Part shown: positions 1,834-59,317 of the stretch, piece after piece | Numbering within the stretch: the stretch's first letter is position 1 | How the letters are laid out: each line of letters begins with the position of its first letter | From: Saccostrea cucullata | Taxonomy: Eukaryota | Length of the DNA: 64,000 nucleotides | Reading direction: 5' to 3' | Assembly: GCF_032062105.1 (NCBI RefSeq) | Contig: NW_026939235.1 | Location: 1-64,000, forward strand | Notes under the pieces: model-generated | What the model saw: the letters and a program-made list of their open reading frames with translations, nothing else | Told to the model about the DNA's origin: nothing | Databases searched by the model: none | Position numbers and translations under genes: made by a program

Positions 1834-1958
1834 TTAAAAGAGATCTCTAATTCTCATTAAGGAAGCAGCTTGGAGATTGTTTTCTGGTTCTTGTTCCATT
1901 GATAATTGTAAGTAGGAATGCAAGGCGGCCTCTTTGTCCCCTGAAATCTGTTGACAGG
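1834..1958 (-). pseudogene. C-terminal remnant of a cGLR/Mab-21 paralog
   Basis: Translates CQQISGDKEAALHSYLQLSMEQEPENNLQAASLMRIRDLF*, matching the C-termini of copies A and E. It abuts a retroelement tail fragment. Confidence 0.8.
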
Positions 1959-2040
1959 TACCTGATCCCACCTCTGATGTTTCGGAGGTCCGTGTTTGCT
2001 CTGCTCCTATTTGTATTGTTTTATGGACTATCCACATCCT
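1958..2040 (+). mobile_element. Penelope-like retroelement 3' tail fragment
   Basis: CCTGATCCCACCTCTGATG..GTCCGTGTTTGCTCTGCTCC is the reverse complement of 44640-44705, which flanks the RT C-terminal remnant at 44815-45080. Another fragment lies at ~13545-13670. Confidence 0.55.
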
Positions 2041-2721
2041 TCTTTGACTTTCAATTTGAATTTCAATTTACCATTATTCTGTCCTCCAACATTCTGATTT
2101 ACTAATGCATTTAAAAAATTTAATTTTTTTTATCTTTGCAAAGTCTTTAAATTTTACTTGGTGTAGTTAATTCTTAACAAAAACTGACCTCTGGTCACTT
2201 ATATGTTATTGGTTGCTAGTTCATCCTAACCAAATACATCTTTTGATTAAAAAGTAAAGAACTGCATACCAATGATTCAATATCTTGGAACGGTCAACAT
2301 CTACCGGTATGTTTATTTTTATCTTTGGAGCTCGCAGGATCGAGTCCAAGAGTAGACGCTCTAACCACTTCGCCACGCGGACAAACCTAACATGTGTTAG
2401 ATACGTTTATTTATAACCATTTGCCAGTGACAAATTGTCAGCTGTCAGTGACAAGTTTACTGCCAACAACAAACACTTACACAGACTAGGCTCATACTAC
2501 GATACTATATAATAAAACATAGCAATTTGTATAAGAATCAATGTTAGTTTATTAGCAATTACATGTACATGTAAAATTTGCAATTTAATTCAAGAATTCT
2601 GTATCATTTAACCTATTTGACGAAGAAAGACAATCAATGTAAGACACTGTAATAATTATTTTTATAAGCATTTCTTTAAGATTGACATGTTACCATACAT
2701 TTTAATATTTCTGCAAAAACA

Positions 2722-3313
2722 CAAAGAATTGTATTCGGTAATAACTAATATTCCCCCCCCCCCCCAATCAAGCTTTGATGGAGATATATTTAATTAAGTT
2801 CGTAAACATGGGTGTATATGCTGACTTCAAAGCACTGAATATTTTCATAAGTAATGACGCCATATGTACATAATGACGTCACAAACATGACGTAATTTTC
2901 AGTTTTTTATGAATTTTACAGAAAAATGTACATATTTGGTCGATATTTTGAGTAAAAGTGAACGAGCGCATGTGTGTTCAGGATCAATATTTTGATATAA
3001 TATGTAGAATGATAATATCAATGAAATATGCCAATATTGTTCCTGAACAGACATGCGCTCTATAAGTTTTGAAGCTTAAATTGTTGAAATTTTGTCCATT
3101 TTGTCCTGTTTCTGAAAAAGGATATAAAATCGGACTAGTTTGTGACGTCATAAAAACAATAATTTGTGAATACACTGCTTTGACACTAAAATGTTTTCTG
3201 TTAATTTATATTTCTCATACAATTTATTCAATTCAGCACATTTCTGGAAGTTTTCAAAATTTGACTTTTGTGGGGGTAAATATATGCAATATACCGCATA
3301 TATATAGTTCTTT
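2722..3313. mobile_element. Non-autonomous DNA element with imperfect terminal inverted repeats
   Basis: Absent from the paralogous flanks at ~10960 and ~18005. Ends are CAAAGAATTGTATTCGG..CCCCC and GGGGG..CCGCATATATATAGTTCTTTG. Confidence 0.5.
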
Positions 3314-3444
3314 GATCAATTTTGCTAGTTTATTTTGAAACAACTCTTTCATTTCTTTTTTGGAATTCACTGGAACGAGTTCATTTTGTAGTAGAAAACA
3401 GCTGTTTCATAATTAGTTAATTGATAGATGAATTGTATGCAGCT

Positions 3445-3678: not shown

Positions 3679-6600
3679 TTATCTATTGTACTGCTTTGTT
3701 AATCCAAAAAGATCAGAAATAGCTTTTCTTATAATAGGTAGTTGTCTTATTAATGAAGCAGTTTTAAATTTGCTAACAGGATCTTGTTCCATGGACAGCA
3801 AATACGAACAAAAAGCTGACCTGTACTTTCCGGACATCTGTTGACAGATTCCTAAAATCTGCCATGATATGTCACCCTCCATTACAGATGGAGATTCTAG
3901 TTGGTCTTCGAAAACTAGTGACTGAAGTTCTTGTAATGCTGATTCTGCTTTCACGTGCACTGGGTCAATCTGTGAGTAGCACAAGAACTCAAGCATGTGC
4001 AACAGAAGAATGGCTGGAATAAACGTTATGTTAACATCTTCGTGGCTATTCAAACTATATTGCTGTTCGAGATATAATTCTTTGATGTAACAGATGCCCT
4101 TTTCAAGATTTATTTTCCCTGCTACAACCATTTTTCTTTTGTTAATCCAGATTCGTTTCTCTAATGCGCTTGCATCGATCTCCTTTTCTTTAAAACATTC
4201 ATACATGTCCCTTACACATATCTGATATAACTTGACCTTTATCATTTCTAAATTGGATAAAGCTTCCAAGTATCTACAGGTCCTATAAAAATACATTGAT
4301 AAAAACAACCTTTCAAAAACACTACCGAATTTTACAACTAGGGTCAGCATATACCTGGACATTTTGTCAGCTGTATAATTTAGTTTGTTTTTTCTTTTGT
4401 TAAAGTACTGATTGTGTAATAAAAATGCAGTGCTCTGAAAAACAGTGGTTACCATTTTTTGTAAAAAGACGACTTTATACCGTGACAGTGGTCTAATAAT
4501 CAGCTGCTCAAGTATCTGTAGGCTTTGTATGCAACCGAGTAGATTACCTCTATCTAATGAAGCACTTATTCCCATTTCTTGGAAAGTTATTTCTTCATGT
4601 GTGCAAAGAAGTTGTCCAGGGTTATTCGGTTGATGAATCATATTGCTAATTGTGGAACTGTATGGTAGAGAGGAATATCCTCTCTCATACAACGCATACA
4701 GTGTAATAAATAAGTCATTCTGTGCTTTCCCTTGTATTTTACCTAGAAATATGTTGTTTTTTGGGATGAAAAAATTAGGACAAACTCCTTCATACACGCA
4801 TTTTAGGATGAACCTAAAGAAATCCCAGAAACCCTCCAGCAGATTTTGAGGACACCAGTCACGAACTGTGTTTTGCTGAAGCACCCAGAAAACTGCTGTT
4901 TTCATGTGATATGAGCACAGTATTTTATCTTCAGCACATACTCCATGGTTAACAACTTCTTTTAGGAACAATTTTAGCATGCCATACGTTAAAAACTGAG
5001 AGTGGTTCATAGAATACACAAGTTTTTGTTCTGCAAGAGAAAAAGAGATTCTCCATTCATCGTCTTCATGATTCCCTTGTTTGTGTCCGATTGGTACGAG
5101 GTGACATCCACTTTTCACTATTTCATTAACTCTTTGAGATCCCGGCCAGGCTTGAGATCTGGCTATCCATGGGGAAGCCAATGGAGGCCAAATGTCACAG
5201 GCAAAACAATGAGCAGTGTCAAAATCCATATCGTACATAAAACCACTGCTACATGGGCCATGTTCCGTAAAACCTGGAAATAAGCCAGAAAGGGTGACTT
5301 TGCGGAGTTCAGAACTAGATATGTAAAATCTATCATTTATACTGATACCGGCCAAATACACACTATCCATATTTGTAAGTGTCATTAAAACTAGAAGTGT
5401 GTATCCTGGCGGACTTTCAGAGCCGTCAGAAAGAATCAATGTTTGTTTATCTGTATTGTAATTTTGTGCCTGTTCCTTGTCCCAGATAACTTTATGATCT
5501 TTAGACCACATCATAATGTCTATATCTGATCCTTTAAATCTGAATCCTTATCTGCGACTTCCACTTGGCAAAAATTGGAACTGAACATCTGCTCCATGCA
5601 ATGTATCCATCATATCGATGAGATCCAGGGCATCTCTTCTCATTGCAACCTGTTGAGGAGTCCCCAAATTACGGCACAGTCCCTCAAACACTGATTGTGA
5701 TATACGCTTCATGCCGATGTCTCTGAAAATGTAACATAATGAAAAATAGCATTAATATACATTATAAAGTGTTCAAAATATAGTTTGAATTGTCAGAAAT
5801 ATTACATTAAACATTTTTTTTACGAAATCTGAACCTTAATATTTTCACTTAACCCTAACATTCGTTAAATTTTGACAACTCTCCAAGAAAGTAATTATGC
5901 GGAGACAAAAGGATATGAAGCACTTAAAATACGTACTCGAAAAAGAAAATACAAAAAGCTAGTTTATTTAATTTCTTTTTTGTATCACACATGTACGCTA
6001 AAAGTTTTAGAAATTATACTGCCCTCAAAATCAAAAGGGGTCTTTCTAAGGACAAAGGCAGTTATGTTTTACTTATGCAACAAAAATGCTTTCTGTGGTT
6101 GTTACGGAAACTAATGATGCAGCTATTGCAGAAAAAAATACGTAACCCGCGTAACAGATTTTATTTTTTATATTTATATATATGTATAAATAATAATTTA
6201 AAGTAGGATAAAAACAGATTGATTATTGTATAATTGTATTACGCCATATAGTATGTTTCATTGATGGAACACCCACTGGTGTTTTTGTACAGGTGATATG
6301 CCTTGTGTTGTCCATGAACTGATCAACTGCAATGGTTCTCTTAATTAATAAAGGAGAAAATATTCAGTGGAATGTAAAAAAAAAATTTCAAAGTGGATTT
6401 CTTTGTTAGCATTTTCTGTATTTTAAAGGGAACAAATCCGCCTTTCTCTTGCAGTTTTAAAATCACTCTATTGTTATTGTTAGGTTGCATATGAATGAAC
6501 TTTAAAGAATTCTTTAGACCATTGTTTTCATTTCAATTCAAACGTCATTGCATTATTAAATTCTAATCGGAAAATATTGGGATATTAGATATTTGATCAA

Positions 6601-6864
6601 TTTCTACAGAAATATGAATGATATAAAACATTTTGTCACGGAGTAATATTTCTATAGTGAAATAATTCCACCTTTTGTAAACAAGCTCAAACAAGCTGCG
6701 CGATTTTTTTTTCAAGTTTTCTCTTGTAAATAAGTGTAATACATGATACTCAATTATCGACAATGATAAAAAGATTAGATTCATATTAAGATTGATAATT
6801 AACGTAAAATAAAATTAATAAAACAAGATGTCACTTACTTTTTCGACATAGTGTCTGAATCCAT
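3679..6864 (-). pseudogene. cGLR/Mab-21 nucleotidyltransferase copy A; exons 6864-6839 and 5722-3679; single nonsense codon at 5548-5550
   Basis: Motifs GSRR*GFRFKGSDID, DFDTAHCF, EWRISFS, SYHMKT, CPNFFIP. TAA stands where paralogs have GAA. Exon 1 ATGGATTCAGACACTATGTCGAAAAA|GTAAGT joins TTTTCAG|AGACATCGGCATG in frame, giving 689 codons if the stop is ignored. Confidence 0.9.
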
Positions 6865-7108: not shown

Positions 7109-7958
7109 CTGTATAGGGGGAAAATAACTCGCGGTGTTAATATTCGCTATATTCAGGGTGATAATAAATCCGTGAATTCAAGAAACAGTGAATGATTTTT
7201 CAATAATCTCCATTTTTTTTTGAAATTTGAAAACAGACTACGATAGGTTTTAATACATGTACCTCAGTACATGGTCATTTCAGTAATTACGAGTAGTACT
7301 TGTCATTCAATTATTTTAATTAGCACGCTTTACATTAATTCCAGTCAACAGATAATAACCTTCTGTAATTTAATAGCCAACGCTATATGTTTCATCAATA
7401 AAACATGTGTGACATGAAATTGATTACCCGTGCGTAACTTAGGTTACCACGCACAGTGTGTGCATTACCTGCATATTATCATGCATATTATAGTTTTTAT
7501 CGACATTTTGATTAAAAAAAATCATTCAAATAACTATCGAACCTACTAAAGATTTGGAAGGATATTATTTCGTCGACCTACATTAACACATTTATTACCG
7601 TCCAGTGGTTTTTCGCCGCGATGTATTGAAGATCTTGGGGTGTATATGCACTCATCGTAATAGAAAGTTATTTGACGTTTATAGTCAAGGGCTTTTGATA
7701 ACTGCTCCTGTTTTCATTAATCGTCAATTATTTATTAAGTCTAACTATTTTATATTAACCTACCCTATCGTTCGTGAAATAAAGGCATAACAATGATGAA
7801 TGTCGTTTATAATTACATGTCGCTACATGGATTAAACGGATATAGACAAGGGGGTAACTTCTATAACATAAGAATTCCGCGAATTCAAGAAACCGCGATC
7901 GTGTCCGATGAGAGAAAACCGTGAATATCACAACCCGTGAAATTAATCCCCTATACAG
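7109..7958. mobile_element. MITE with TA target-site duplication
   Basis: TIRs CTGTATAGGGG / CCCCTATACAG, flanked by TA on both sides. The empty site ATTACTCCGTGAC is visible in the paralogous block at ~21581. Confidence 0.9.
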
Positions 7959-8084
7959 TACTCCGTGACAAAATGTTTTATATCATTCATATATCTGTAG
8001 AAATTGATCAAATATCTATTAACCCAATATTTCCTGATTAGAATTTAATAATGCAATTACGTTTGAATTGAAATGAAAACAATT

Positions 8085-10370: not shown

Positions 10371-11213
10371 CCCCCCTCCCCTTGCCCCCCTGTTGCTCCG
10401 TGCCTGTCTGCGCAATATCTGGAGAAGCCTTTAAATTGAGCTTCTGTAATGAAATACCTTTACCCTGTGGCCCAAAATCAACTCTATTTATTTCTTTATT
10501 TCAAGGTCAAAGTTCAAATGATAAGATCATTAAGTAAAAAACTATGTGTTTGAACTCTTTCATGTCTCCGCGATATCTCAAGAAGCCTTTCAGCTTTTGC
10601 TTTAAAATTTTACACCACAACTCCCCATGGCCTAAGAAAAAAAACACTTATTTGATATAGAGGTCAACAGGTCAAGGTCGTAGGTTCTAATATCCATTTT
10701 GTGAGTTAAACTTTTATTTATAATCATCTGTCGGTAAAAGTTTACCAACAACAAGTACTTACATGGAATAGCCTACTACGATTTACATATAAAAAAACTA
10801 CGATTTACATATAAAAATGACAATTCAATTCAAGGATTCTGTAACATTTAATCCATCAAAAATAGAAAGATAATTAATGCAAGACAACGGAACAATCATT
10901 TTATTAGCATTGATTTTAAGATGGACATGTTACCATACATTTAAATTTTAGTGCACAAACGCAATGTTCATTATTTTTGCTGGTTTATTTCGAAACAAAT
11001 CTTTATTTGGATTTCATTTGAACACGTTCAACTGTTTCATAGTTGGTAAATTGAAAGGATAAATATGTAGTTTGTTTGTCATCGTGTTTAATTTATTTGA
11101 ATAACTACATTTGTTCATCAACGTGGTGTATTTTTCTATATATTCATTATATTGTTATGCTATGTTTTTCCATAACGATCAAAATTAACTTTTCTAAAAA
11201 TAAATAGTTGTCT

Positions 11214-12347
11214 TCATAATGAAGCAGTTTCAAATTTGCTAACAGGATCGTGTCCCATTGAAAGCAAATACGAAAATAAAGCTGACTTGTACTTTCCGGA
11301 CATCTGTTGACAGATTCCCAAAATCTGCCATGATATGTCTCCCTTCATTATAGATAGAGATTTTAGTTGGTCTTCGAAAACTAGTGACTCAAGTTCTTCT
11401 AATGATGATGGTGCTTTCACAGGATCAATTATTGTGTAGCACAAGAGCTCCAGCATGTGCATTAGAAGAATAGCTGGAATAAACATTATGTTAAAAACTT
11501 CGAGGCTATTCAAACTGTATTGCTGTTCGAGATATAATTCCTCGATGTTACCGATGCCCTTTTCCAGATTTACTAGCCCTGCCTCCAGCATTTTTTACTT
11601 ATAAATCCAGAGTCTTTATTCTAATTCGCTTGCATCGATCTCTTTTTCTTTAAAATATCCGTTCATGTCCCTTACACGTTTCTGATGTAGTTTGACCTTT
11701 GCAATTTCTAAACTTGATAAAGCTTCCAAGTATCTGCAGGTCCTATAAAAATACATGGATAAAAACAACCTTTCAGAAAGACTTCCAAATTTTACAGCTA
11801 GTTTCAGCATATACCTGGACAGTTTGTCAGCTGTATACTTTAGTTTGTTTCCTCTTTTGTTAAATAACTGATTATGTAATAAAAATGCAGTGCTCTGAAA
11901 AAGAGTGGTTACCATTTTTTCCAACAAGACGACTTTATACCGCGACAGTGATCCAATTACCAATTGCTCAAGTACTTGTAAGCTTTGTATGCAACCGAGT
12001 AGATTATCTCTATGTAACAAAGTACATATTCCCAATTCTTGGAAAGTTCTTTCTATATCGGATTTCAAAATATGTTCATCTGTGCAAATAAGTTGTCCAG
12101 AGTTATTCAGTTCATGTATCATATAACTGCTGATTGTGGAACTGTATAGTAGAGATGAATATCCTCTCTCATACAACGCATACAGTTTAATAAATAAATC
12201 ATTTTGTGCTTTCCCGTATATTTTTTCCAAAAATATGTTGTTTAATGGGATGAAAAAATTAGGACAAACTCCTTCATACACACATTTAAGAATATACCTA
12301 AACGAATCCAAGAAACAGTCGGTCAGAGTTTGAGGACACCAGTGACT
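11214..12347 (-). pseudogene. cGLR copy B, 5'-truncated
   Basis: Homology starts at WCPQ; the nucleotidyltransferase lobe is absent. In-frame stops in ELE*RLWIYK*KML (~11595-11618) and a premature TGA at 11214. Confidence 0.9.
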
Positions 12348-15205: not shown

Positions 15206-16122
15206 TATATTAGAGGGAGAAACTTGCATGCATCTTGTTTTTCCAAAAACAGTAAAATTTAGTTCATGCTTCAAATATTTCTCTTTAATACACATAGACC
15301 TATGACGTATTTGCAAAAAAAGTATCGATATGCGATGTTATTCCAATGCACAATATATATTCCTTTCACGCTTTGATACACAATTTACTCACGAATTAAA
15401 CAATTATTAGAAAAAATGACTAGAAATTTGAGGAAAATACAAGTTGAATACCATATAAACGGGTTGAACTCGTCACAATGTTCATAAGACCCTGTTAGAA
15501 GGAGTTAGTCTTAACAAGATACATAAGGGCCGATTCACTACTGAGTATAAGCATATGATATATTTATTCAATACAATCCAAGAATAATATAGTATTCTTT
15601 GCACATAGTTTACTGTACAAACACCTTTGAGAAGATTTCAGATTAAGACTCCGAGTAAATGATTATAAGAAACATGTTTAAGTCTTTCTCTGTATATTGT
15701 TAATTAATGTTTTAGCCTCAGGGGAATATGTGTTTAGAAAATATTTAATTGAAACACGAAAGAGAATTATTATTATTATTTTTTTTTTGATTTTAAGTAT
15801 TTCAATGCTTCTTCATCTCAAGCTATTTTAGCAATAAATTTAAACCCTATTGGTGCACTTTTGAACAAGTTCGTGTTTAATGCTAAAAAAGGAACATTTT
15901 GATATAGTTTTCACAGCATGACGTATATTACGGAAAACCAAAATATTACATAACCCTCTTTCCAATAGGAAATGATAACAGTAAGCGTAGGATTATAATG
16001 TATATATACATGTAGGTCTTGTTAACTTTCATAACATTGATCGGGAGCCAATATTTACAAATCAGTCTTATGTAGGAAAATAAGAAACGGGTATGTGAAA
16101 TTAAAATTCATTTTATCATAAA

Positions 16123-17394
16123 ATGTGTAGGTTTTTTAGAAGGTGTATGTTTAAAATAAGTCAGTACACATTTACTATAAACAATCTGTATTGGACATGT
16201 CATTATATTGTTTTTATAACACAAACAGATTTTCCAGAAGAAAGTACATTCTATAAAACAGGAGAAATGGGCAGCTCATCAATTCATCTCAGATCGAATG
16301 TATCAGGATTCGCCGAAGAGAAAGCAGCAAAAGAAAACCATACAGTTTGGTATCCATCGTCAACAGAACAAACTCTTCAAAAACTTTGGAACGAAACGAG
16401 CAAATTTCCTGTTGATTACAGCTGTCCTAACATGTCCGGTGCTGTTTCGTTCAAATTCTATTTGTTCAGTTCCGAAAAAAGTAATCTTACCTCGGATGGA
16501 TTTGATAGATGTATCGTGGTACTAGGATTAATAATTGGGTTTCTAGGTTTCGTTGGAAATTCTGCCACCATCTTCAAAATTTTGTGGGATAAAAAGTTCC
16601 ATACTCCTACATTCATCGCTTTAGCTTGCCTTGCAGTCCCAGACCTTCTAAATATCATCAATGTTTGCCTTAGTAGATTTTCCAACCTTCCTTTGTACAT
16701 CAGAAATAATTATATCTCGCCCGAATGTGTTTCAGCGTTCATTATAGTGTATTTCCTGTATGAAACGATTTATACTAGCTCAAGTGCACACATCGTGTTC
16801 CTTTGTTTGATAAGATATTTATTGACAGTCCATCCTCTAAAGGCCAAAATACGACTAACAAGGATAATGGTTATGAGATGCTCTATCATGATATGGATTT
16901 TTTGTTCCCTGTTTTCAGCATCTATATCAATAATAATATCAGGACATGGTAAAATTTCGACAGATGAGGGAAAAATTCGTTCAATTGCAAGCTTTTCTAC
17001 AAGAATTGCAGTCTCAGGGCTGCTGTCTATATGTGCCATCGTTACCATACATATTTTGAAAATGAAAGCCCTTAAACATTCCTCTACTACCAAAGGCATC
17101 AATAGAAAAATGCATATTATAATATCCATTATATTATTAATTTTCACGTGCTTTCAAATTTTCCGAATAACATGTTTTATATCTGGATTATCTAAATCAT
17201 TTTCTTTCGAACACAGTATGTTTTCAGAAAACCATTATCCATACGTACATGACATTGTTTTCCTCCTTGTTCTCCTAAACTTCGCCTGTAATCCTTATTT
17301 ACTCTTTTTTGCTTCGATGATCGTTTCATGCAGAAAACGTTTCCATCCTACGAAGTCAACGAATGTTCGAATAAATGAAAGACATTTCTTTTAG
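16123..17394 (+). CDS. Rhodopsin-family (class A) GPCR; true start uncertain (ATG 16267 or spliced at the acceptor near 16228)
   Basis: Seven hydrophobic segments: TM1 GN, TM2 LACLAVPDLL, TM3 LCLIRYLLTVHPL (DRY position reads IRY), TM4 W, TM7 NFACNPYLLF. N-glycosylation sequons in the N-terminus. Confidence 0.9.
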   Translation: MCRFFRRCMFKISQYTFTINNLYWTCHYIVFITQTDFPEESTFYKTGEMGSSSIHLRSNVSGFAEEKAAKENHTVWYPSSTEQTLQKLWNETSKFPVDYSCPNMSGAVSFKFYLFSSEKSNLTSDGFDRCIVVLGLIIGFLGFVGNSATIFKILWDKKFHTPTFIALACLAVPDLLNIINVCLSRFSNLPLYIRNNYISPECVSAFIIVYFLYETIYTSSSAHIVFLCLIRYLLTVHPLKAKIRLTRIMVMRCSIMIWIFCSLFSASISIIISGHGKISTDEGKIRSIASFSTRIAVSGLLSICAIVTIHILKMKALKHSSTTKGINRKMHIIISIILLIFTCFQIFRITCFISGLSKSFSFEHSMFSENHYPYVHDIVFLLVLLNFACNPYLLFFASMIVSCRKRFHPTKSTNVRINERHFF

Positions 17395-17424
17395 ACTTCC
17401 TAACATCTGTGTAGATTTGATTCA

Positions 17425-18147: not shown

Positions 18148-19047
18148 TTATTTACATATTGTAATGCTATATTTATCCAAAACGATTAAGACAACGTTTC
18201 TAAAATTAGGTTCTTGTCTTATTAATGAAACAGTTTCAAATTTGCAAACAGGATCTTGTCCATCGAAAGCGAATATAAATATAAAGCCGATTTGTACTTT
18301 CCGGACATTTGTTGACAGATTCCTAAAATCTGCCACTATATGGATCCCTTCATTATAGATGGAGACTCTAGCTGGTCTTCAAAAACAAGTGACTCCAGTT
18401 CTTGTAATGCTGATTGTGCTTTTACGTGCACTTGGTCAATCTGTGAGTAGCACAAGAACTCAAGCATGTGCAACAGAAGAATGGCTGGAATAAACGTTAT
18501 GTTAACATCTTCGTAGCTATTCAAACTATATTGCTGTTCGAGATATAATTCTTTGATATAACAGATGTCCTTTTCAAGATTTGTTTGCCCTGCTACAACC
18601 ATTTTTCTTTTGTTAATCCAGATTCGTTTCTCTAATGCGCTTGCTTCGATCTCTTTTCCTTTAAAACATTCATACATGTCCCTTACACATATCTGATATA
18701 ACTTGACCTTTATCATTTCTAAATTGGTTAAAGCTTCCAAGTATCTACAGGTCCTATAAAAATACATTGATAAAAACAACCTTTCAGAAACACTACCGAA
18801 TTTTACAACTAGGGTCAGCATATACCTGGACATTTTGTCAGCTGTATACTTTAGTTTGTTCCTTCTTTTGTTAAAGAACTGATTGTGTAATAAAAATGCA
18901 GTGCTCTGAAAAACAGTGATTACAATATTTTGTAACAGGACGACTTTATACCGAGACAGTGGTCTAATAATCAATTGCTCAAGTATTTGTAGGCTTTGTA
19001 TGCAACCGAGTAGATTATCTCTATCTAATAAAGCAATTATTCCCATT
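18148..19047 (-). pseudogene. Out-of-frame C-terminal domain of cGLR copy C
   Basis: Near-identical to the copy A C-terminal domain. A second frameshift lies at ~18337. Confidence 0.85.
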
Positions 19048-21336
19048 TCATATCAAAGTATGTTCATCTGTGCAAAGAAGTTGTCCAGGGTTATTCGGTT
19101 CATGAATCATATAACTGCTGATTGTGGAACTGTATAGTAGAGATGAATATCCTCTCTCATACAACGCATACAGTTTAATAAATAAATCATTTTGTACTTT
19201 CCCGTGTATTTTACCCAAAATCATGTTGTTTTTTGGGATGAAAAAGTTAGGACAAACTCCTTCATACACACATTTTAAAATATACCTAAAGCAAACCAAG
19301 AAACACTCTAGGAGATTTTGTGGACACCAGTCACGAATTGTATTTTGCTGAAGCACCCAGAAAACTGCTGTTTTCATGTGATATGAGCACAGTAATTTAT
19401 CCTCAGTACCTAAACCATCCTTTATAACTTCTTTTAAGAACAATTTAAGCAAGCCATACGTTAAAAACTGAGAGTGGTTCATAGAGAACACAAGTTTTTG
19501 TTCTGCAAGAGAAAAAGAGATTCTCCATTCATCGTCTTCATGATTTCCTTGTTTGTGTCCAATTGGTACGACGTGACATCCACTTTTCACTATTTCATTT
19601 ACTATTTGAGATCCCGGCCAGACGTGAGATCTGGCTATCCATGGGAAAGCCCATGGAGGCCAAATATCAGAAGCAAAACAATGAGCAGTATCATGATTCA
19701 TATCGTACATAAAACCACTGCTACATGGTCCATGTTCTGTAAAATCTGGAAATAAGCCAGAAAGTGTGATTTTTCGGAGTGCAGAACTAGATATGAAAAG
19801 TCTGTCATTGCTACTGATACATGCAAGATACACACTTTCCATATTTGTTTGTGTGATTAATACTAGCTGTGTGTACCCTGGCGGGCTATCAGAGCAGTCG
19901 GAGAGAATCAATGTGTGTTTATCTCTATTGTAATTTCGTGTCTGTTCCATGTCCCAGATAACTTTATGGTCTTTAGACCACAGCATAATATCCATGTCTG
20001 ATCCTTTAAATCTGAATCCTTCTCTACGACTTCCACTGGGCAAAAATCGGAACTGAACATCTGCTCCTTGCAATGTATCTACCATTTCGATAAGATCCAG
20101 GGCATCTCTTCTCATTGCAACCTGTTGAGGAGTCCCTAAGGTATGGCACAGTCCCTTAAACAATGATTGTGATATAAGCTTCATGCCGATGTCTCTGAAA
20201 ATGTAACATAATGAAAAATAGCATTAATATACATTATAAAGTGTTCAAAATATAGTTTGAATTGTCAGAAATATTACATTAAACATTTTTTTTTTACGAA
20301 ATCTGAACCTTAATATTTTCACTTAACCCTAACATTCGTTAAATTTTGACAACTCTCCAAGAAATTAATTATGCGGAGACTATAGGATATGAAGCACTTA
20401 AAATACGTACTCGAAAAAGAAAATACAAAAAGCTAGTTTATTTAATTTCTTTTTTGTATCACACATGTACGCTAAAAGTTTTAGAAATTATACTGCCCTC
20501 AAAATCAAAAGGGGTCTTTCTAAGGACAAAGGCAGTTATGTTTTACTTATGCAACAAAAATGCTTTCTGTGGTTGTTACGGAAACTAATGACGCAGCTAT
20601 TGCAGAAAAAATACGTAACCCGCGTAACAGATTTTATTTTTTTATATTTATATATGTATAAATAATAATTTAAAGTAGGATAAAAACAGATTGATTATTG
20701 TATAATTGTATTACGCCATATAGTATGTTTCATTGATGGAACACCCACTGGTGTTTTTGTACAGGTGATATACCTTGTGTTGTCCATGAACTGATCAACT
20801 GCAATGGTTCTCTTAATTAATAAAGGAGAAAATATTCAGTGGAATGTAAAAAAAAAATTCAAAGTGGACTTCTTTGTTAGCATTTTCTGTATTTTAAAGG
20901 GAACAAATCCGCCTTTCTCTTGCAGTTTTAAAATCACTCTATTGTTATTGTTAGGTTGCATATGAATGAACTTTAAAGAATTCTTTAGACCATTGTTTTC
21001 ATTTCAATTCAAACGTCATTGCATTATTAAATTCTAATCGGAAAATATTGGGATATTAGATATTTGATCAATTTCTACAGAAATATGAATGATATAAAAC
21101 ATTTTGTCACGGAGTAATATTTCTATAGTGAAATAATTCCACCTTTTGTAAACAAGCTCAAACAAGCTGCGCGATTTTTTTTTTCAAGTTTTCTCTTGTA
21201 AATAAGTGTAATACATGATACTCAATTATCGACAATGATAAAAAGTTTAGATTCATATTAAGATTGATAATTAACGTAAAATAAAATTAATACAACAAGA
21301 TATCACTTACTTTTTCGACATAGCGTCTGAATCCAT
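19048..21336 (-). CDS. cGLR copy C; exons 21336-21311 and 20194-19048; 390-aa product with complete NTase/Mab-21 core, truncated by frameshift (may be a pseudogene)
   Basis: Intact GSRREG..SDMD, third Asp in NHDTAH, EWRISFS, SYHMKT, CPNFFIP. Micro-exon joins in frame. An out-of-frame deletion at ~19047 ends the ORF. Confidence 0.7.
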
Positions 21337-22114
21337 AATTTTTTTCTTATTGAAAGTTACCAGTAAAATTACCAGACTCAGAGAATTAGACAAAAAATCC
21401 TACTGGGGTATTTTTAGTTTGTAGCAAACTTTAAAGGGAATTCGATACCAAGTAGGCCATAATATGATTAATCAATATTCATACGTGTTTTCCCTGGTAG
21501 AGTTAACCAAGGGTTTGTTAAATACAATTTGTTCAAAGTAACTGAATGTTAAAAAGGTGAAATTATTTCACTATAGAAATATTACTCCGTGACAATTCCT
21601 GATTAGAATTTAATAATGCAATGACGTTTGAATTGAAATGAAAACAATGGTTTAAAGAATTCTTTAAAGTTCATTCATATGCAACCTAACAATAACAATA
21701 GAGAGATTTTAAAACTGCAAGAGAAAGGCGGATTTGTTCCCTTTAAAATACAGAAAATGCTTATAAAGAAATAAACTTCCAATTTTTTTTTTACATTCCA
21801 CTGAATATTTTCTCCTTTATTAATTAAGAGAACCATTGCAGTTGATCAGTTCATGGACAACACAAGGCATATCACCTGTACAAAAACATCAGTGGGTGTT
21901 CCATCAATGAAACATACTATATGGTGTAATACAATTATACAATAATCAATCTGTTTTTATCCTACTTTAAATTATTATTTATACATATATAAATATAAAA
22001 AATAAAATCTGTTACGCGGGTTACGTATTTTTCTGCAATGGCTGCGTCATTAATTTCCGTAACAACCAAAGAAAGCATTTTTGTTGCATAAGTAAAACAT
22101 AACTGCCTTTGTCC
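20524..22114. repeat. Long inverted repeat (arms ~20524-21147 and ~21552-22114) enclosing exon 1 of copy C
   Basis: 21601-22114 is the near-exact reverse complement of 20524-21039, and 21552-21595 of 21102-21147. Confidence 0.92.
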
Positions 22115-27373: not shown

Positions 27374-27439
27374 CTACAATGAAAAGCAATATATCGGACT
27401 CATATGAAAACGGCATAAACATTCTGAGAAACGAAATTA

Positions 27440-27555
27440 TCATAAAAAAAGAAATGTTTTTAATGCAGTATCGGCCATTCAAGGCACAGGTCTTTGGAGA
27501 CCACACTGATCCTCTAGAATGGCATTCACTCTGATTGAAGGTTACGGAGGTATCA
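27440..27555 (-). repeat. Degenerate tandem partial duplicate of the ShK exon
   Basis: Matches 27222-27335; several Cys codons and the GT donor are altered. Confidence 0.8.
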
Positions 27556-41477: not shown

Positions 41478-44400
41478 AGCAGACTATAAGGTATGCCTTA
41501 CAGAGTTACCTTCAAAATGTTATTAAATTTTATTGGAGTTATTCCTCTTTGGTAACATTAGTGGTGTAATTTTATCTATATATGGATCTAATTTACATAT
41601 TAATTAGCAAACAACCAATGAAAATCTATTTATTTATAACTAAGTTACACACATACAAATAATATTTTTGTGCTTTAGAATTAAAAAACTCTTTTTTAAT
41701 TTTTAGGTGGAATAGCTACTTAGTATGAAAAACAGAGTGTAATTATAAGGTTTTTTACTCTAATTATCAGTGAATGGATTAATTAATTATCCAAATTATC
41801 AGAGGTAAGCACATTAGGTACTATGTAATTGTATTTATGATGCAGTCAATGGTTTATTTACGTTGCGTATTCCTCAAAACATGGAGGAAATTCGGTACGA
41901 GGTGAACAATTTGCATCCAGATCATAATAAATTCCAAATAACATTAATGAATAATAACAGATAAATAATAATAAATGTCAACACATATCATTTATTCAAT
42001 CATTCATCGAATCATTATTTTAACGATTCATATCACAAGAAACATCTTATTTACTTATTCATCACAATAGTGGAGAATGCCAAATTCGTAACACTATAAC
42101 CATCAAAAACGTTCTGGATTGATTATTTGTAGGATGCTGTTTATCCTCATCAGGGTGACCGTTTGTATTTTGCTTTCTGAATCTTGTGCAATCGATTTCA
42201 AGAACGAGTATAAAGCAGCCTGCTTGTTTCCTGCAATTTGTTGACAGATCCCCAAAACCTGCCACGATACGTCTCCTCTCATCGTAGAGGGAGGCTCCTC
42301 TTGGTCTTGGTGAACAAGTGACTGAAGTTCTTGTAGTGCTGTTTGTGCGTTCACTGGATCAATGTTTGTATAGCACAAGAACTCGAGCATGTGTAACAGA
42401 ACAATGTTTGGAATTGCCAAAAAGAATGTATGCTCGAGTTCTGTATTTTTTATTCCATACATTTGTTCTGGCCATAATTCTTTAATATAACAGATTTCGT
42501 TTTAAAGTCTTATTTCACCTGCGCGTATTAGTGCTATCCTTCTGATATATCTATTTATCTCGGCGTTTTCTATACGAGAAGTTAAATTCATTATTGTTTC
42601 TCCAACTTTTTCATAGAAGTAACTCAAGCAAATTTTGTATAACTTGTCCTTTGCAATTTTCAAAGTAGAAATAGCTTTCATATATCTAGAAGTTCTGTAG
42701 AAATACATGGATATATAGAGTATTTCAGAAACGGATCCGAATTGTGCGACTAATTTCACCATGGGGATGGATATTTTATCCGTTATATACCTTGATCTGT
42801 TTTTGCCTTTACATAGATATCCATTGTGCAATATAAAGGCTGTTCTCTGAAGCATGGTTGTTACCAATTTCTGTAACATGGAAACTTGATATTGTGTTAA
42901 TGGTTTAAGCGACAATTGTTCTAGAATTGTTAAATATTTTAAGCAGGTGAACATGTCTGGACTGTACAGAGAATCATTCACTTCTATCTCATGTGACGGT
43001 GCCATTCTGATTTCTGACTCAAAGGTCAGAGATTTTTCATCTGTGCAGATGTGCTGACTTGGATTGATCATTACTTGAATAATATAGGGGCTGATGGAAG
43101 AACAGTGTAAAAGGCATGCTATACTACCCTTTTCGTACAACCCATGCAATCTCAGAAACAAATTATTTTGTGCTTCCCCGTAGATTTTACTCAGAAACAT
43201 GTTGTTTGTTGGAATGAAAAAATTAGGACAAACTCCTTCATACACACATTTTAGGATAAACTTGAAGCAAATCCAGAAACCCTCCAACAGATTTTTAGGA
43301 CACCAGTCACGAAATATGTCTTTCTGAAGTACCCTTAAAACAACTGTCTTCACGTGATAGGAACTCAGCAATTGTTCGTGAGTACTTAACCCATTGTTGA
43401 TGACTTCCTTTAGGAACAATTTAAGCAGACCATACGTTAAAAACTGACAGTGGTTCATGGAGAATACGAGTTTACGCTCCCCTGTGGAGAAAGAGATTCT
43501 CCATTCTTTATCTTCATGATGTCCTACCATGGACCCTATTGCAACAAAATGGCATCCATTTTTGACTATATCATCGATAACACGAAGCCCGGGCCATGGC
43601 CTGTGACATCTTTCTATAAATGAGAATGCTGATGAAGGCCAAAAGTCGCAGAAAAAGCCCATGGCCTGGTCCATTTCAATACCCAGTTCCACACTAGAGA
43701 AACTACTACAAGGTCCATGCTCTGTGAATTGTTTATGTTTATATAAAAGAGCGATTTGTCTGAGCAAGGAACTACATATATAAAGTGTGTCATTCACTCT
43801 GATACATGCTAATTGCACTGCTACAGTATTTGTTCGTTTCAGTAACTTAAGTAATGTATAACCTGGGGGACTTTTAGAACTATCGGAGAGAATCAATGTT
43901 TCTGTATTTCCATTGTAAATTTGAGCCTGGTTCAAGGTGAAGATAACTTTGTGGTTTGCGAATCAGAGCAAGCTGTCTATGTCTGAACCCTTAAGTCTGA
44001 ATCCTTCTCGATAACTCCCGGTAGTCATCCCACAGACGTCTTTTTCTAATTGTTGGAATCTTCGCACCATATCCAAAAGATCCCCACCTTCTCTTTTCAT
44101 GGTCACTTCTCGTGAAGTCCCAATAATTCGGCATAGTCCCACAAACACTGACTCTGACATGCGTTGCAAACCAATTTCCCTTTAAAAATGGAAACATAAT
44201 GGTAGTAAGAACTACGTGCGAATTATACGACTTAAAATGCATAACAACAGTTTTTGACAATATGTCCTGGCATGGACCGTAAAGTAATGTCACTGTAATT
44301 CATAAATCTCATCTCTAAAAACAAAATATATCAAATACATCTTGATTTTTTTTTTAATAATCTAGCTTTCATGCTTCCTAAAAGTTATCCTTTCTCTAAA

Positions 44401-50200: not shown

Positions 50201-50844
50201 ATAATACAACATTACACCTTAAAATTATTCCGGGAAAAACATTCCTAAACTATTCTAAGGACAGATGATACAAACAAAAATGGGATACCTGATTTGATAT
50301 ATATATTTTTTTTACCTTATTTCATTGCAAATGGTGCAAATAAAAAAATTCTAGAATATAAAAAGAAATTGTTTACCTTCTGTGATGTTCAAAATTATAC
50401 CCTTCTGAAACCATCCTTATTTTTCTATAAAAAAATCACTTCAAATGCCATTTCAGTGAAACTTTGAATAAATAAATTAATCTACGCGTTGAAACTTATT
50501 CAATTTACCCATTTAAAGATTACCCAGGTTGTTATTTTCATTTTTTTTTGACAAAAGTTTTTTTTTAATCATCAGTCCTTAATGACCCAAAAGTCATAAA
50601 CGCTAAATTGTTTTTATTTTAAAATTTTCTAGAAATCTTGTTTTGAATAAGACTATTGAACAAGTAAAATGATTGTCATGTAAAAATTTGTAATAAATTT
50701 GCAACTATGAAAATACAACACCGGTCCACAAATAATAACATACATGTACTTTGATCTTGAATTAAAAAGGTACATGTATCTATAAATCGAAACACGTGAT
50801 TTTTTCCTTTTAAATGCTTAATTCGGTGATGTCGTCGGTAAGGT

Positions 50845-51350
50845 GCACTTCTTGTAGAAAAGCTTGCAATTGAACAGATTTTTCCTTCATTTGTCGAAAA
50901 TATACCACGTCCAAATATCATTAGTAATATAGATGCTGAAAACAGCGAACAAAAAATCCATATCATGATAGGGCATCTTATAACCATTATTCTTGTTAGT
51001 CGTATTTTGGCCTTTAATGGATGGACTTTTAATTAAAATCTTATCAAGCAAAGGAACACGATATGTGCACTTGAGCTAGTATAAATCGTTTCAGTCAGGA
51101 AATACACTATAGTTTACGATAAAGGACTTTCGGGCGAATTACATTTATTTCTGATTTACAGAGAAGGTTCTAAAATTTACTCAGCGAAACATTAATACTA
51201 TTTAGAAGGTCTGGAACTGCAAGGCAAGCGGTAGCGATGAATGTATGAGTATGAAACTTTTTATCCCACGAAATTTGAAGATGGTAGACCATCCGAGGTA
51301 AGAATACTGCTTTCAGAACTGAACAAATAAAATTTAAACAGAACCGGCCC
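50845..51350 (-). pseudogene. Decayed inverted copy of the GPCR at 16123-17394
   Basis: Fragments FKFYLFSSESSILTSDG, WDKKFHTHTFIATACLAVPDLLN and RCPIMIWIFCSLFSAS..SIASFSTR, with frameshifts and deletion of TM1. Confidence 0.9.
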
Positions 51351-51689
51351 AGACGGGTCGGTGTCACAGTTTGTGATAAATGGCATGGAAATAATCCCTC
51401 GCTGCAACCAAGCTTTCAAATTAAACAGAACAAAGAGAACGTGCAAACAAAAGTTTATTATAGTGCTCAAAATAATATATAGAAAATCCTCACACACACA
51501 CCCTCGCACATCCACCCCCACACACACCTACAACACTCGCACAAAAAAAACCTAAACAAAAAAATATAATAGTGTCTATAAACAAAAAAAAATAATAATA
51601 GTGTCTATACACCGACTAAAATATTGTCAAACCCGACCAGACGAATGTTTCTTTGACACGTGCACATATCCGCTGATTTTTCTGATAAA

Positions 51690-55400: not shown

Positions 55401-56113
55401 AACCCACGAAAATTAATGTAAACGAAAATTGATGAAACGATAGTAATTTATTTTACAATTTGACAGATCATGCACGCACAACTCTCACTGAAATTGAAAT
55501 TATGACTTGTTATGCAAATCAAATTTACCGAGTTACATACGTATGCACAATATCCAATGTCTAATTTGTATCACAAAGCATGACAATTGATTATTTCATA
55601 AACCTTACATTTATATTTCTAAACAAAGTTATAGCTGTTAATTATAAAATTCATAATGTTTCTTTTTTTATACGTAAAAAACCTTATTTGAATTTTCACT
55701 GGTACAAGTACATTTCGGAGGAAAAGTAAATTACGCTTCATATTTAGATTCCAACCATGAAAAGTGTGTAGCATTACTTTTTAATTACATTTGTTCCATA
55801 AATATGTATTAATGTATACAGTACATTGTAATGCGCTATATTCATCAAAAACAATAAAGAATAGCTTACTTAGAGATTTCTCATTACTAACGCAAATTGA
55901 AAGGGACTGTAAGTATGTATATATATACCACAGTGAACTTTTCTCATAAAACGTTCTTCAACTGATTACAATTTGACAACTCCATAAATCTATAAAACTT
56001 TATGTACAATTATAATCTAATGTAATATAAATAAAAGATCTTAAACCTTCTACATCTTGTTAAAGTTTGAGAAATTCTTGTCTTATACAAATTTTTGTGA
56101 ATAGTGTCAAAGA

Positions 56114-59100
56114 CTAGTACTTCGCAGAAATCTGCTGACAAATCCTTAAGATATGCCATGATATGTTTTCGTCAATGACACAAGGAGGCTCTAAATAGTC
56201 AAGATAAACTACTGACTGAAGTTCTTGTAATGCTGATTGTGCTTTGACTGGATCAATGTGTATGAAGCAAAAGGACTTCAACATGTGTAACAGTAGAATC
56301 CTTTGAATGAACAAAACGCTCTGATTTCCGATGCTATTTAAACCGCATTGTTGTTTTAGAAACAATTCTTTGATATAACAGAAGCTCTTTTCAAGTTTAA
56401 TTGTCCCCACCTCAAGTATTTTCATCTTGTTGATAAAGATATATGTTTTACTTGCATTGACCTCTTTGTCTCTAAGACCTTGATACAAGTCCTTAAGATA
56501 TATCTGATTTAGCTTGACATTTGTCATCTCTAAAGTAGATAAAGCGTCCATGTATCTACACATTCTGTAAAAGTAAATGGATAAAAATAACCTATCTAAA
56601 ACCTCGCCGAATTTAAATTCTAATTTCAGGATGGACCTTGATATTTTTTCAGCTTTATTTCTACTGTTGTTAAAGTACTCTTTGTGTAATAAAAACGCAG
56701 TGTTATGAAGCACAGTCTTTACCATTTTTTGTAGCAGGGCGGCTTGATACTGTGTCAGTGGCCTATTTATCAATTGTTCAAGTTTTTGTAAGGTTTGTAT
56801 GCAATTGTGTAGATCGTATTTACATAATAAATTGCCTATTCCCAATTCTTGAAATGTTGTTACTATCTCGGAGATAAAAAATTGTTCATCTATACGATTA
56901 TTCTGACCGGGGTTATTCAGTTCATGAAACAAATAGGGTCTGATGAAGGAACTCTTCAGCAGGGCTGCCAGCCCTTTTTCGTACAACGCATATAGTCTAG
57001 TAAATAAATCATTTTGTGCTTTTCCATGTATAATACCCAAAAACATGCTGTTTTCTGGAATGAAAAAGTTAGGACAAACTCCTTCATATACACATTTTAG
57101 GATAAACTTAAAGCAGACCCAGAAACACTCTAACAGATTTTGAGGACACCACTCTTGAATTGTGTCTTGCTGAAGCACCCAGAAAACTGCGGTTTTCATG
57201 TGATATGAGCACAATAATTTATCCGCAGTACCTATACCATCGTTTTTAACCTCTTTTAGGAACAATTTAAGCAAGCCGTATGTAAAAAACTTACAGTGAT
57301 TCATTGAGTACACAAGTTTCTGTTCTGCAAGAGAAAAAGAGATTCTCCATTCGTCGAACTCATAATTCCCTTGTTTGTGTCCTATTGGTACGACGTGACA
57401 TCCATTTTTCACTATTTCATTAACTAATTGATATCCCGGCCAGACGTGAGATCTGGCTATCCACTGAGAGGCTGATGGTGGCCAAATGTCACACGCAAAG
57501 CAATGAGCAACGTCATATTCCATATTGTTTATATAACCTCTAGTACATGGTCCATGTTCGGTAAAATCATCTGGTACTACTCCGGAGAGCAGTTTTCGTT
57601 TTAGTGTAGAACTAGATATGAAATGTCTGTTAGTCCTAAAGATACATGCTCTTTTCACACATTCCTTACAAACAAGTAGCGTGTATCCTGGTGGGCTTTC
57701 AGAGCAGTCTGAAAAAATCAATGTATGTTGACCTATGTCGTAATTAAAACCCTGATTCATGTCCTAGATAACTTTCTCGCTTTTTGGCCAAACCATAACG
57801 TCCGTATCTGATCCCGTGAATCTGAATCCTTCTCTGCGACTTCCAGTTGCCATTTGAATGGTCGGAATTTGCGATAAAGGTGACTTTTCTATCATGTCCC
57901 TTAAATCTGCAGCATCCCTTCTCATGGCAACTTGTTGCGGAGTCCCCACAATTTGACACAGTGCCTTAAATACTGACTCTGACATATATTGTATACTGAC
58001 GTCCCTTTTGAAATGTAAAATAAGGAAAAATATAGTTGAAAATACATTAAAATTGTTGATTTTTTTCATTTAAGTTTAAATTGGTAGAAAAAAATTTTGA
58101 ATTGTAAGTTTTCAAAGTGTTTTGGTCTTCAAAAATGGATGTTCTCCCAAAATTTACTTTATTAAAACATTATTTTCGGATTAAACAATAAGTAGAAAAA
58201 AAATCAAAAATATTTGTGGACTTTTGAAATATTTAGCCTGAAAAAATCAAACACTTTCGATATATGCACAATTAAGAAAACAGAAAAATAGAAAAATAAT
58301 TTATTTCTTAAAGTTTAGAAACGTTAGTTCCCTACACATTAAAACTCGGTTATTGCGAAGTTCTGAGGACTTGTGAATGTAATTTGCTACATCCGTATTT
58401 CGTTGTATTCGTATAACGAATTAGTAAATCCATATCCGTGTTCCTATTAAACGAGTGTTACTGTAGCTTAATGTTAATCAAATCACTAGTATGTTTTTTT
58501 TTCTTTAACGAGAATATTTGATATTCTTAACTTTTCTTTTGTGATACTGCCATCGACCTGATGCACGCGCTCATTCAATATAGACTACTGTGGAAGTGTA
58601 AATGTTCATGGATTTCATTAGTCTCACTTTTCCATTGATTTATATCCCCATGAATAATTTCTTTTTTTAATTTTAATTTGAATCTTCTATAAATATGACC
58701 GAGTTACCATGTATGGTGTCCGAATATCAATCTTACGATCTCATTACATATGTTTGATTTACTTAGAAAGCAAAAATAAAGCAGAATTTAATATAAACAT
58801 TTTCTTTAATTGGAAAATTTCTCTTGTAGTTTTTAAAATCAGTCTATTGTTATTGTTCTGTCGCATATGAATAAACTTTAAAAAATTCTTTAAACCATTG
58901 TTTACGTAATTCGTTTCAGTTGAAATGACATAGCACTATTAAATATTAATCAAGAAATCAATATTTGTTTTTCTTTTAAATATATAATTTATTTCTGGAG
59001 AGATATGAGCAATGTTTCTAGAATGAAATAATTTCATCTTTCAAAAACAAGCTAATAAAAGCTTCACAACAAAATTGTGTTTTTTTTCAAGTTAAATCAT

Positions 59101-59317
59101 GAATAAATAAAAATCATCCAAAAAAAAAAAACTTTAATGAATAAAATGTACTTAATAAACAGTGATAACAATACTTTTTGCTAAGCAGAAATAAAACGAG
59201 CATTGAAATACAGATTCATGTTTTAAGAAAGCGGCTATCATAGGAAGGATAATTTTCACATAAAATTAAGAAAAACTAGAATATTACTCACGTCTGCGAA
59301 AGAGTGTCTGTATCCAT
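56114..59317 (-). pseudogene. cGLR copy F; exons 59317-59292 and 58004-56114; in-frame TAG at 57764-57766; last ~40 codons lost
   Basis: GSRREG..SDTDVMVWPKSEKVI*DMNQ, where paralogs have KVIWD. Exon 1 ATGGATACAGACACTCTTTCGCAGAC|GTGAG joins CAAAAG|GGACGTC in frame. Homology ends at CQQISAKY*. Confidence 0.88.

What the first reader, a model, noticed from the sequence alone, without database searches (positions are those of the whole stretch)
1834..59317. Tandem cGAS-like receptor array (7 copies or remnants) with no uninterrupted full-length member
Seen: seven same-strand Mab-21-family sequences in 58 kb, each with stops, frameshifts or truncation. Known: cGLRs are nucleic-acid-sensing cyclic dinucleotide synthases that are greatly expanded in bivalves. 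Inference: a birth-and-death immune locus, possibly polymorphic for intact alleles or serving as a sequence reservoir.
Basis: partly seen in the sequence, partly recalled or inferred. Interest (0 to 1): 0.7.

Follow-up and report, generated by a model that had tools for sequence, protein, structure and literature searches.

The report
Dying oyster cGAS-like gene cluster
This stretch of a rock-oyster genome holds seven side-by-side copies of a cGAS-like gene, all broken in this assembly, and is most likely a recently dying branch of a very large gene family whose unbroken members sit elsewhere in the same genome, so it is an ordinary case of gene birth and death.

Summary
Observation confirmed. 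Seven minus-strand copies of a two-exon gene lie at 1834-59317: four near-full-length (9 stops or frameshifts counted with the half copy: see parts), one 3' half, two scraps; none is uninterrupted. The protein is a cGAS/cGLR-fold enzyme fused to a TPR-like solenoid (Z 22.1 to oyster Cv-cGLR1), a clade already listed as cGLRs by Li et al. 2023. The lesions are mostly stop-making substitutions, so assembly error is unlikely but was not excluded with reads. dN/dS of 0.33-0.53 and only 1-3 stops per copy show long purifying selection and very recent loss. The genome keeps at least 33 unbroken copies elsewhere, and 21 of 46 copies in 12 other arrays are also broken or partial. Gene conversion between copies is evident (intron 1% vs coding exon 9.5% divergent), but no transfer into an intact gene was found. 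Nucleic-acid sensing is not shown for this clade: its enzyme domain lacks the high pI of known sensors. Verdict: real, ordinary birth-and-death; low interest.

The parts
1834..1962 (-). Copy A: last 41 codons of a cGLR-TPR gene
   Evidence: tblastn E 1.5e-6; 24 of 41 codons identical to copy B; 90.8% over 130 nt to C545:77828-77954
3679..5722 (-). Copy B, exon 2 (677 codons from the internal ATG at 5712); single TAA at 5548-5550 in place of the Glu of GSxxEGF, between GS and DxD
   Evidence: Glu in 25 of 25 intact copies; copy D has G where B has T at 5550
5723..6838 (-). Copy B predicted intron (GT..AG); 99% identical to the intron of copy D: likely recent gene-conversion tract
   Evidence: 11 mismatches in 1113 nt against 194 in 2040 for exon 2; permutation 0 of 5000
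6839..6864 (-). Copy B predicted coding exon 1 (MDSDTMSK, donor GTAAGT)
   Evidence: same junction used by RefSeq model P0002 of copy D
11163..12341 (-). Copy C: 3' half only (from codon 286); stops TAA 11616-11618, TAA 11595-11597, TGA 11214-11216; no frameshift
   Evidence: Pfam Mab-21_C 1.2e-8
18190..20194 (-). Copy D, exon 2: enzyme domain open (391-aa frame), frameshift about 19050, TAG 18336-18338, frameshift about 18260
20195..21336 (-). Copy D predicted intron (20195-21310) and coding exon 1 (21311-21336)
30988..31466 (-). Copy E: decayed fragment (codons 218-375; 2 stops, 4 frameshifts)
33426..33451 (-). Orphan exon 1 of copy E
   Evidence: exon-1 pattern and alignment to B and G
35737..41718 (+). 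Young 6-kb DNA transposon inserted in the 3' flank of copy F (1023-aa open frame, TAGCTATTCCA termini, 7-bp target duplication CTTAGTA)
   Evidence: 98.5% identical over 6013 nt to C12321; ends; three 99% copies elsewhere
42103..44179 (-). Copy F, exon 2 (688 codons, in frame): TGA 43963-43965 (Trp) and TAA 42502-42504 (Glu); exon 1 not found
   Evidence: C545:124308-125322 is 96.1% identical over the TPR half and has GAA at the second stop
56114..58004 (-). Copy G, exon 2: TAG 57764-57766 (Trp) and TAG 56114-56116, with a degenerate C-terminal end
   Evidence: sister copy on C15409 has Trp there and is open over its 478 available codons
59292..59317 (-). Copy G predicted coding exon 1

Best explanation
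The seven sequences are tandem copies of an oyster cGAS-like enzyme gene with a TPR-like tail, all broken in this assembly, and they are most likely a locus-specific branch of the family that worked until recently and is now being lost while other arrays supply the function. Shown: the family, the fold, the lesions, one clade for the local copies, dN/dS well below 1, patchy identity between copies, and many unbroken relatives elsewhere. Inferred: local duplication built the array; copies swapped segments by ectopic gene conversion and unequal crossing-over (which also left the scraps A, C and E); selection on the whole locus then relaxed, so that each copy picked up 1-3 stops in about the last 0.01-0.04 substitutions per site. 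Inferred from the family only: intact members would make a cyclic dinucleotide for STING signalling once a ligand binds, and the TPR-like tail would bind a partner or ligand; the ligand is probably not plain dsDNA or dsRNA.
For: Fold: AlphaFold2 with 116 sequences, pLDDT 77.5; residues 1-346 align to Cv-cGLR1 8gjw at Z 22.1, rmsd 4.1 over 302 residues, residues 380-670 to TPR-like solenoids at Z 11-12; Foldseek top hits cGAS, E 1e-9. GS, DxD and the third Asp are kept in B, D, F and G. Tree of 91 proteins: B, C, D, F, G plus C23071 and C15409 form one clade (support 0.97), sister to C545 copies. ML dN/dS 0.33-0.53 for the 10 window pairs, each rejecting 1 (LRT 10.7-85.6), against a median of 0.53 for 117 intact pairs. 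Observed stops 1, 1, 2, 2, 3 against 13, 14, 54, 16, 12 expected if neutral along the whole terminal branch. In 12 other array stretches (587 kb): 25 intact, 15 near-full-length broken, 6 partial of 46; 17 of 26 further top loci intact. Lesions in B, C, D, F, G are 9 stops and 2 frameshifts, while open frames of 429, 1023 and 1484 codons on the same contig are clean.
Against: The window is worse off than the comparison arrays: 4 of 4 near-full-length copies broken against 15 of 40 (Fisher p 0.029), and only 7 of those 15 carry an in-frame stop (counted from the list; the rest are frameshift-only and some may be sequencing errors), so independent random deaths do not explain it; a locus-wide cause is needed and none was identified. 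The comparison arrays were picked through high-scoring hits, which favours intact copies, and the window was picked for looking broken. Broken tips do not have significantly higher dN/dS than other branches (0.47 vs 0.38, LRT 2.5), which fits recent loss but also fits rare null alleles or errors. No read data confirm any stop. The TPR Z scores lie in the range that helical bundles reach by chance (note).
Confidence: 0.72

Rival explanations
1. The locus is alive in the species: this assembly shows one haplotype loaded with young null alleles, and other haplotypes carry intact copies or a different set of copies.
For: Estimated age of the stops is 0.008-0.016 substitutions per site for B, D, F, G, near the 0.9% difference between two near-identical contigs, C23071 and C18078. 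C15409 is 85% identical to G and open over 478 codons, and C23071 and C545 are partly collinear with the window but hold other copies, one intact (C545:73492-75489). Non-syntenic immune haplotypes are described in pearl oyster (PMC9646362, passages).
Against: Four to five separate nulls on one haplotype still need relaxed selection. The sister contigs are only 74-91% identical outside one tract and C545 has other flanking genes, so they look like paralogous blocks, not alleles. No 95-100% second copy of B or of the right flank is in the assembly. No protein closer than 51% to B or F exists in the database apart from this locus's own gene models.
Confidence: 0.15
2. The broken copies are kept as donors for gene conversion that diversifies working cGLR-TPR genes (a sequence reservoir).
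For: Conversion-like tracts exist: B/D intron 1.0% divergent against 9.5% in exon 2 and 13.1% in distal flank; the TPR half of F is 96.1% identical to a piece on C545 whose flank is 75-79%; runs in the B/C/D triplet are non-random (p 0.003-0.01 for two of three patterns).
Against: Every partner in those tracts is itself broken. DNA searches with B and F found no high-identity tract in an intact copy among the 40 candidates scored in each (of 716 and 2859). The clearest tract is intronic. Conversion is an expected by-product of tandem arrays (own knowledge).
Confidence: 0.05
3. The disruptions are assembly errors in intact genes.
For: B differs from an open frame by one base; frameshift-only copies elsewhere, some in homopolymers, suggest indel noise in this assembly; dN/dS looks like that of working genes.
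Against: 9 of 11 lesions in B, C, D, F, G are substitutions to three different stop codons; about 2900 codons of other long frames on the contig have none; A, C and E are truncations of hundreds of bases, one beside a transposon-bearing interval; F and G each need two independent errors.
Confidence: 0.04
4. The loci make shortened, catalytically dead products (downstream start or alternative splicing) that act as decoys or regulators.
For: After the early stops, B has a 611-aa and G a 548-aa Met-started frame covering the helical lobe and the TPR-like tail; RefSeq models P0001, P0002, P0121 predict spliced products of 444-487 aa.
Against: The RefSeq introns cut through conserved coding sequence and remove the DxD motif or TPR helices, as gene predictors do around stops; F and D have further downstream lesions and G a damaged end, so the retained part is not protected; three early stops within codons 55-77 are a post-hoc pattern with no match in other broken copies. 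All three stop types replace different residues, so no recoding rule fits.
Confidence: 0.04

Closest known systems
Oyster Mab-21 plus helical-tail cGLR clade in Li et al. 2023 (PMC9980059) Table S1, e.g. C. gigas XP_011455268, XP_019919930, XP_011448995, XP_011418024
   Same: About 50% identity over the full length, same SGS-xxE-GF-DxD motif, same length of about 680 aa; 4 of 6 accessions looked up are in the curated cGLR table.
   Different: The window copies are broken and form a long-branched local clade with no database protein above 51% identity except this locus's own models.
Biochemically active oyster cGLRs Cg-cGLR1 and Cv-cGLR1 (dsDNA-activated, make 2'3'-cUA; PDB 8gjw)
   Same: Same caged NTase fold; best structural match, Z 22.1; catalytic acidic triad present.
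   Different: 16% identity; no TPR-like tail in the solved chain; these sensors have pI above 8.5 (section 6) while this clade's enzyme domain is 5.8-8.4; activity and ligand of this clade are not shown.
Human MB21D2 and coral Sp-cGLR1
   Same: Best sequence matches among solved structures (E 2e-12 and 1e-13); the third Asp of copy B (D165) aligns with MB21D2 D207.
   Different: Single or few-copy genes without this tail; match limited to the enzyme domain.
Birth-and-death multigene families with ectopic gene conversion (e.g. MHC, NLR, olfactory receptor arrays; recalled)
   Same: Tandem copies, mixed intact and broken members, patchy identity, transposon insertion.
   Different: Only the gene family and the species; all copies in this contig end happen to be broken.

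Membership tests
cGLR (Li et al. 2023 criteria) | Active-site motif h[QT]GS-X8-20-[DE]h[DE]h-X50-90-h[DE]h | tested here: inconclusive
   GS, DxD and third Asp present in B, D, F, G. B and D have SGS, F and G TGS; the last spacing is 97 residues in B, beyond X50-90. Table S1 members of the clade show the same SGS and spacing and were accepted. In B the motif is cut by the TAA.
cGLR (Li et al. 2023 criteria) | [quoted passage not shown] | tested here: met
   Pfam Mab-21 and Mab-21_C above cut-off in B, D, F, G.
cGLR (Li et al. 2023 criteria) | Predicted structure matches known cGLR/CD-NTase | tested here: met
   Model of B read through its stop: Z 22.1 to 8gjw, 19.8 to mouse cGAS; Foldseek E 1e-9.
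Functional cGLR gene | Uninterrupted reading frame | tested here: not met
   0 of 7 copies.
Functional cGLR gene | Cyclic dinucleotide synthesis | not testable with these tools
   Three screened proteins sharing clade motifs (samples 98, 102, 103) carry no active-enzyme label in Table S3; the figure file with the screen was too large to read, so they may have been inactive, insoluble or simply not chosen.
Nucleic-acid-sensing cGLR | Basic enzyme domain, pI above 8.5 | tested here: not met
   First 340 reference positions: B 5.81, D 6.52, G 6.78, F 8.36; 0 of 33 intact copies above 8.5, range 5.90-8.33 (threshold from section 6).
cGLR-TPR architecture (Li et al. Fig. 1C legend) | TPR module fused to the enzyme | tested here: inconclusive
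   Residues 380-670 are an all-helical solenoid matching TPR proteins at Z 11-12, within the chance range for helical repeats; no Pfam TPR hit in the window copies; one homologue has PF07719 (P0070). The domain was not folded alone.
Recent pseudogene (birth-and-death) | Disabling lesions with a past record of purifying selection | tested here: met
Recent pseudogene (birth-and-death) | Lesions real and fixed; no protein made | not testable with these tools
   No read or expression data could be brought to bear on the stops.
Gene-conversion reservoir | Tracts from broken copies found in intact genes | tested here: inconclusive
   None among 40 scored candidates in each of two searches; most candidates were not scored and only one assembly was seen.

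The most novel reading that the evidence does not exclude
The locus is a hypervariable immune region in which rock oysters carry very different haplotypes, each with its own mix of live and dead cGLR-TPR genes, and in which enzyme halves, TPR halves and introns are swapped between copies, so that dead copies feed new chimeric receptors for a non-nucleic-acid ligand.
Probability: 0.1. Interest if true: 0.6.

Novelty: new member of a known kind. Interest (0 to 1): 0.2.

Why it matters
Little as it stands: one more decaying array in a family with hundreds of members. Two points are useful. First, counts of bivalve cGLRs from annotation are inflated, since RefSeq turns three of these broken copies into spliced protein models. 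Second, the largest oyster cGLR clade has a TPR-like tail, a near-neutral enzyme domain and no shown activity, so its ligand and product remain open; that question is better asked with the intact copies than with this locus. If the haplotype-mosaic reading held, the locus would be a testable case of individual immune repertoires in oysters.

Tried and rejected
Sequencing runs: no RNA holder listed; five runs held 6-10% of the words. Single-sequence structure prediction failed (pLDDT 33.5) and was replaced by the alignment-based model. IQ-TREE codon run gave no parsable omega; replaced by my own codon model. Search for an allelic contig: none for copy B or the right flank; searches with 22000-31000 and with C545's flank returned only repeats. 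Protein atlas look-up for the transposon ORF gave no result. Recoding or A-to-I rescue rejected: stops are TAA, TAG and TGA in place of Glu, Trp, Ser, Lys and others, and B needs Glu (25 of 25 intact copies). Splicing round the lesions rejected: the RefSeq junctions delete catalytic or TPR parts. False tandem duplication of two haplotypes (B and D) rejected: distal flanks differ by 13% and the neighbours differ. Earlier-findings look-ups by place, words and sequence were blank. Literature searches (listings only) showed no paper on this locus or on pseudogenes of this clade; subscription papers are not covered.
Full report
1. Observation. Six-frame translation and tblastn find seven Mab-21-family loci, all on the minus strand. 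A frameshift-aware alignment lists the lesions: A 1834-1962, last 41 codons; B 3679-5722, one TAA at 5548-5550; C 11163-12341, 3' half with three stops; D about 18190-20194, frameshift about 19050, TAG 18336-18338, frameshift about 18260; E 30988-31466, fragment with 2 stops and 4 frameshifts; F 42103-about 44179, TGA 43963-43965 and TAA 42502-42504; G 56114-about 58004, TAG 57764-57766 and TAG 56114-56116. None is uninterrupted. The gene has a 26-nt coding first exon (MDSDTMSK in B; found for B, D, E and G, not for A, C, F), an intron of about 1.1-1.3 kb and one long exon; the splice sites are predictions. The window is bases 1-64000 of a 909-kb contig in a 1.17-Gb, 23,869-contig assembly, so the array is open to the left; 40 kb to the right hold no further copy. 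Database models labelled Saccostrea cucullata match window exons at 99-100%.

2. What the protein is. Pfam Mab-21 and Mab-21_C pass cut-off in B, D, F, G. The best solved-structure sequence matches are Sp-cGLR1, MB21D2 and cGAS. A model of B read through its stop, built on 116 sequences, has pLDDT 77.5; residues 1-350 match cGAS/cGLR (Foldseek E 1e-9; Z 22.1, rmsd 4.1, 302 aligned to Cv-cGLR1) and residues 380-670 form a helical solenoid like TPR proteins (Z 11-12, weak for helical repeats). GS, DxD and the third Asp survive in all four long copies. Four of six related C. gigas accessions are in the curated cGLR table of Li et al. (PMC9980059; seen: passages, sections 5 and 6, searches in supplements 1-6, first part of supplement 3). 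The three screened proteins that share clade motifs carry no active label; the supplementary figure file could not be read. Known nucleic-acid sensors have pI above 8.5; the enzyme domain here is 5.8-8.4, and 0 of 33 intact copies exceed 8.5. So membership in the cGLR sequence family holds, but nucleic-acid sensing is not shown for this clade.

3. Family context. A genome search gave 1583 first-look candidates, of which 125 were scored. Of 26 top loci outside the local clade 17 are intact. In 12 other array stretches (587 kb) there are 46 copies: 25 intact, 15 near-full-length but broken, 6 partial; one stretch (C10412) has 4 of 4 broken, though one of these rests on a single homopolymer frameshift. 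These stretches were chosen through high-scoring hits, which favours intact copies. In a tree of 91 proteins the five usable window copies group with copies on C23071 and C15409 (0.97), next to a C545 clade that includes an intact gene (A and E left out as too short). No database protein is closer than 51% to B or F apart from this locus's own models.

4. Are the lesions real and how old? In B, C, D, F, G there are 9 stops and 2 frameshifts; frames of 429, 1023 and 1484 codons on the same contig are clean. Long-read errors are mostly indels (own knowledge), so error is unlikely, but no reads confirm it. Close relatives have sense codons at the stops: D at B's TAA, C15409 at G's first TAG, C545 at F's TAA in a 96% identical tract. 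ML dN/dS is 0.33-0.53 over the 10 window pairs, all below 1, against a median 0.53 for 117 intact pairs under 20% divergence; broken tips 0.47 against 0.38 elsewhere, not significant. With 6.5% of point mutations making a stop, the stop counts date the losses to 0.008 (B, D), 0.015 (F), 0.016 (G) and 0.040 (C) substitutions per site, with wide intervals, a small part of each terminal branch. Lineages up to dS 1.1 apart thus failed at about the same recent time. Against simple independent deaths: 4 of 4 versus 15 of 40 gives p 0.029, and only 7 of the 15 have an in-frame stop. A locus-wide relaxation, or a haplotype loaded with nulls, fits better; I found no cause.

5. Sequence exchange. B and D lie in a 14.5-kb-offset duplicate. 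Their intron differs at 11 of 1113 sites, exon 2 at 194 of 2040, exon 1 with near flank at 14 of 272, distal flank at 126 of 963; the heterogeneity exceeds all 5000 permutations. The intron is specific to this locus and C15409, so this is not a shared transposon; recent gene conversion is the likely cause, with assembly polishing as a caveat. The TPR half of F is 96.1% identical over 952 nt to a broken piece on C545 whose flank is only 75-79% alike. All partners are broken, and no tract in an intact gene turned up among the 40 scored candidates of each of two DNA searches. Conversion is therefore supported, a reservoir role is not.

6. Sister contigs. C23071 is collinear with window 12.8-20.3 kb (83-88%) and then joins sequence like 53.3-54.8 kb; C18078 is 99.1% identical to it; C15409 follows 56.6-59.2 kb (74-85%); C545 shares anchors at copies A and F but has other neighbours. 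They may be paralogous blocks or very divergent haplotypes; the data do not decide. Divergent immune haplotypes are reported for pearl oyster (PMC9646362, passages only, no mention of Mab-21). PMC10732462 (passages) notes that the immune roles of MB21D2 and Mab21L1 are unclear and that animal cGLRs arose by repeated duplication.

7. Mechanism and verdict. Shown: tandem copies, cGLR fold with helical tail, lesions, purifying selection in the past, mosaic identity, intact relatives elsewhere. Inferred: local duplication, conversion and unequal crossing-over, then recent relaxation of the whole locus (0.72). Rivals: null-loaded haplotype of a live locus (0.15), conversion reservoir (0.05), assembly error (0.04), truncated decoys (0.04). 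An earlier AI note on another piece of this genome (e1-9520381) reached a similar reading for a different cluster; it is not independent support, and I checked only its family assignment. Novelty: a new instance of a known kind. Interest 0.2.

Noticed in passing
window 35737-41718: Young DNA transposon with an intact 1023-aa ORF, no Pfam hit, 11-bp inverted termini and 7-bp target duplications; three 99% copies elsewhere, so probably recently active. A 7-bp duplication recalls the hATw group (recalled, not tested). The ORF holds a 21-bp Ser/Thr tandem repeat at 36907-37240.
   Followed up: partly
window 16105-17391 (+) and 50844-51359 (-): Intact rhodopsin-type GPCR gene tail-to-tail with copy D, and a decayed inverted piece of it near 51 kb; the GPCR-cGLR pair is repeated on C23071 (87% protein identity); 98 family matches in the genome.
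   Followed up: partly
window 24367-27578 (-): Exons of a small gene with ShK-like and thrombospondin-1 domains between copies D and E, with a 1.1-kb high-copy repeat at about 25290-26375.
   Followed up: no
window 62108-64000 (-), continuing to contig 66559: One open frame of about 1484 codons rich in Gln, Pro, Ser and Thr, no Pfam hit for the window part.
   Followed up: no
window 20524-21043 and 21596-22114; 7937-8083: Part of the D intron is duplicated in inverted form just upstream of exon 1 (96.5%), and a shorter inverted piece lies upstream of B.
   Followed up: no
C23071 (L049) and C18078 (L051): Two contigs 99.1% identical over 6.9 kb carry the same more heavily decayed sister copy (shared stops and frameshifts), showing that lesions in this clade recur on independent contigs.
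   Followed up: yes
C10412:22283-24672 and C1771:3352-5641: Two family copies have an insertion of about 200-260 nt at nearly the same codon (reference 490-491); a shared insertion or a new intron.
   Followed up: no
window 575-1076: Three copies of a 167-bp tandem repeat near the contig start.
   Followed up: no
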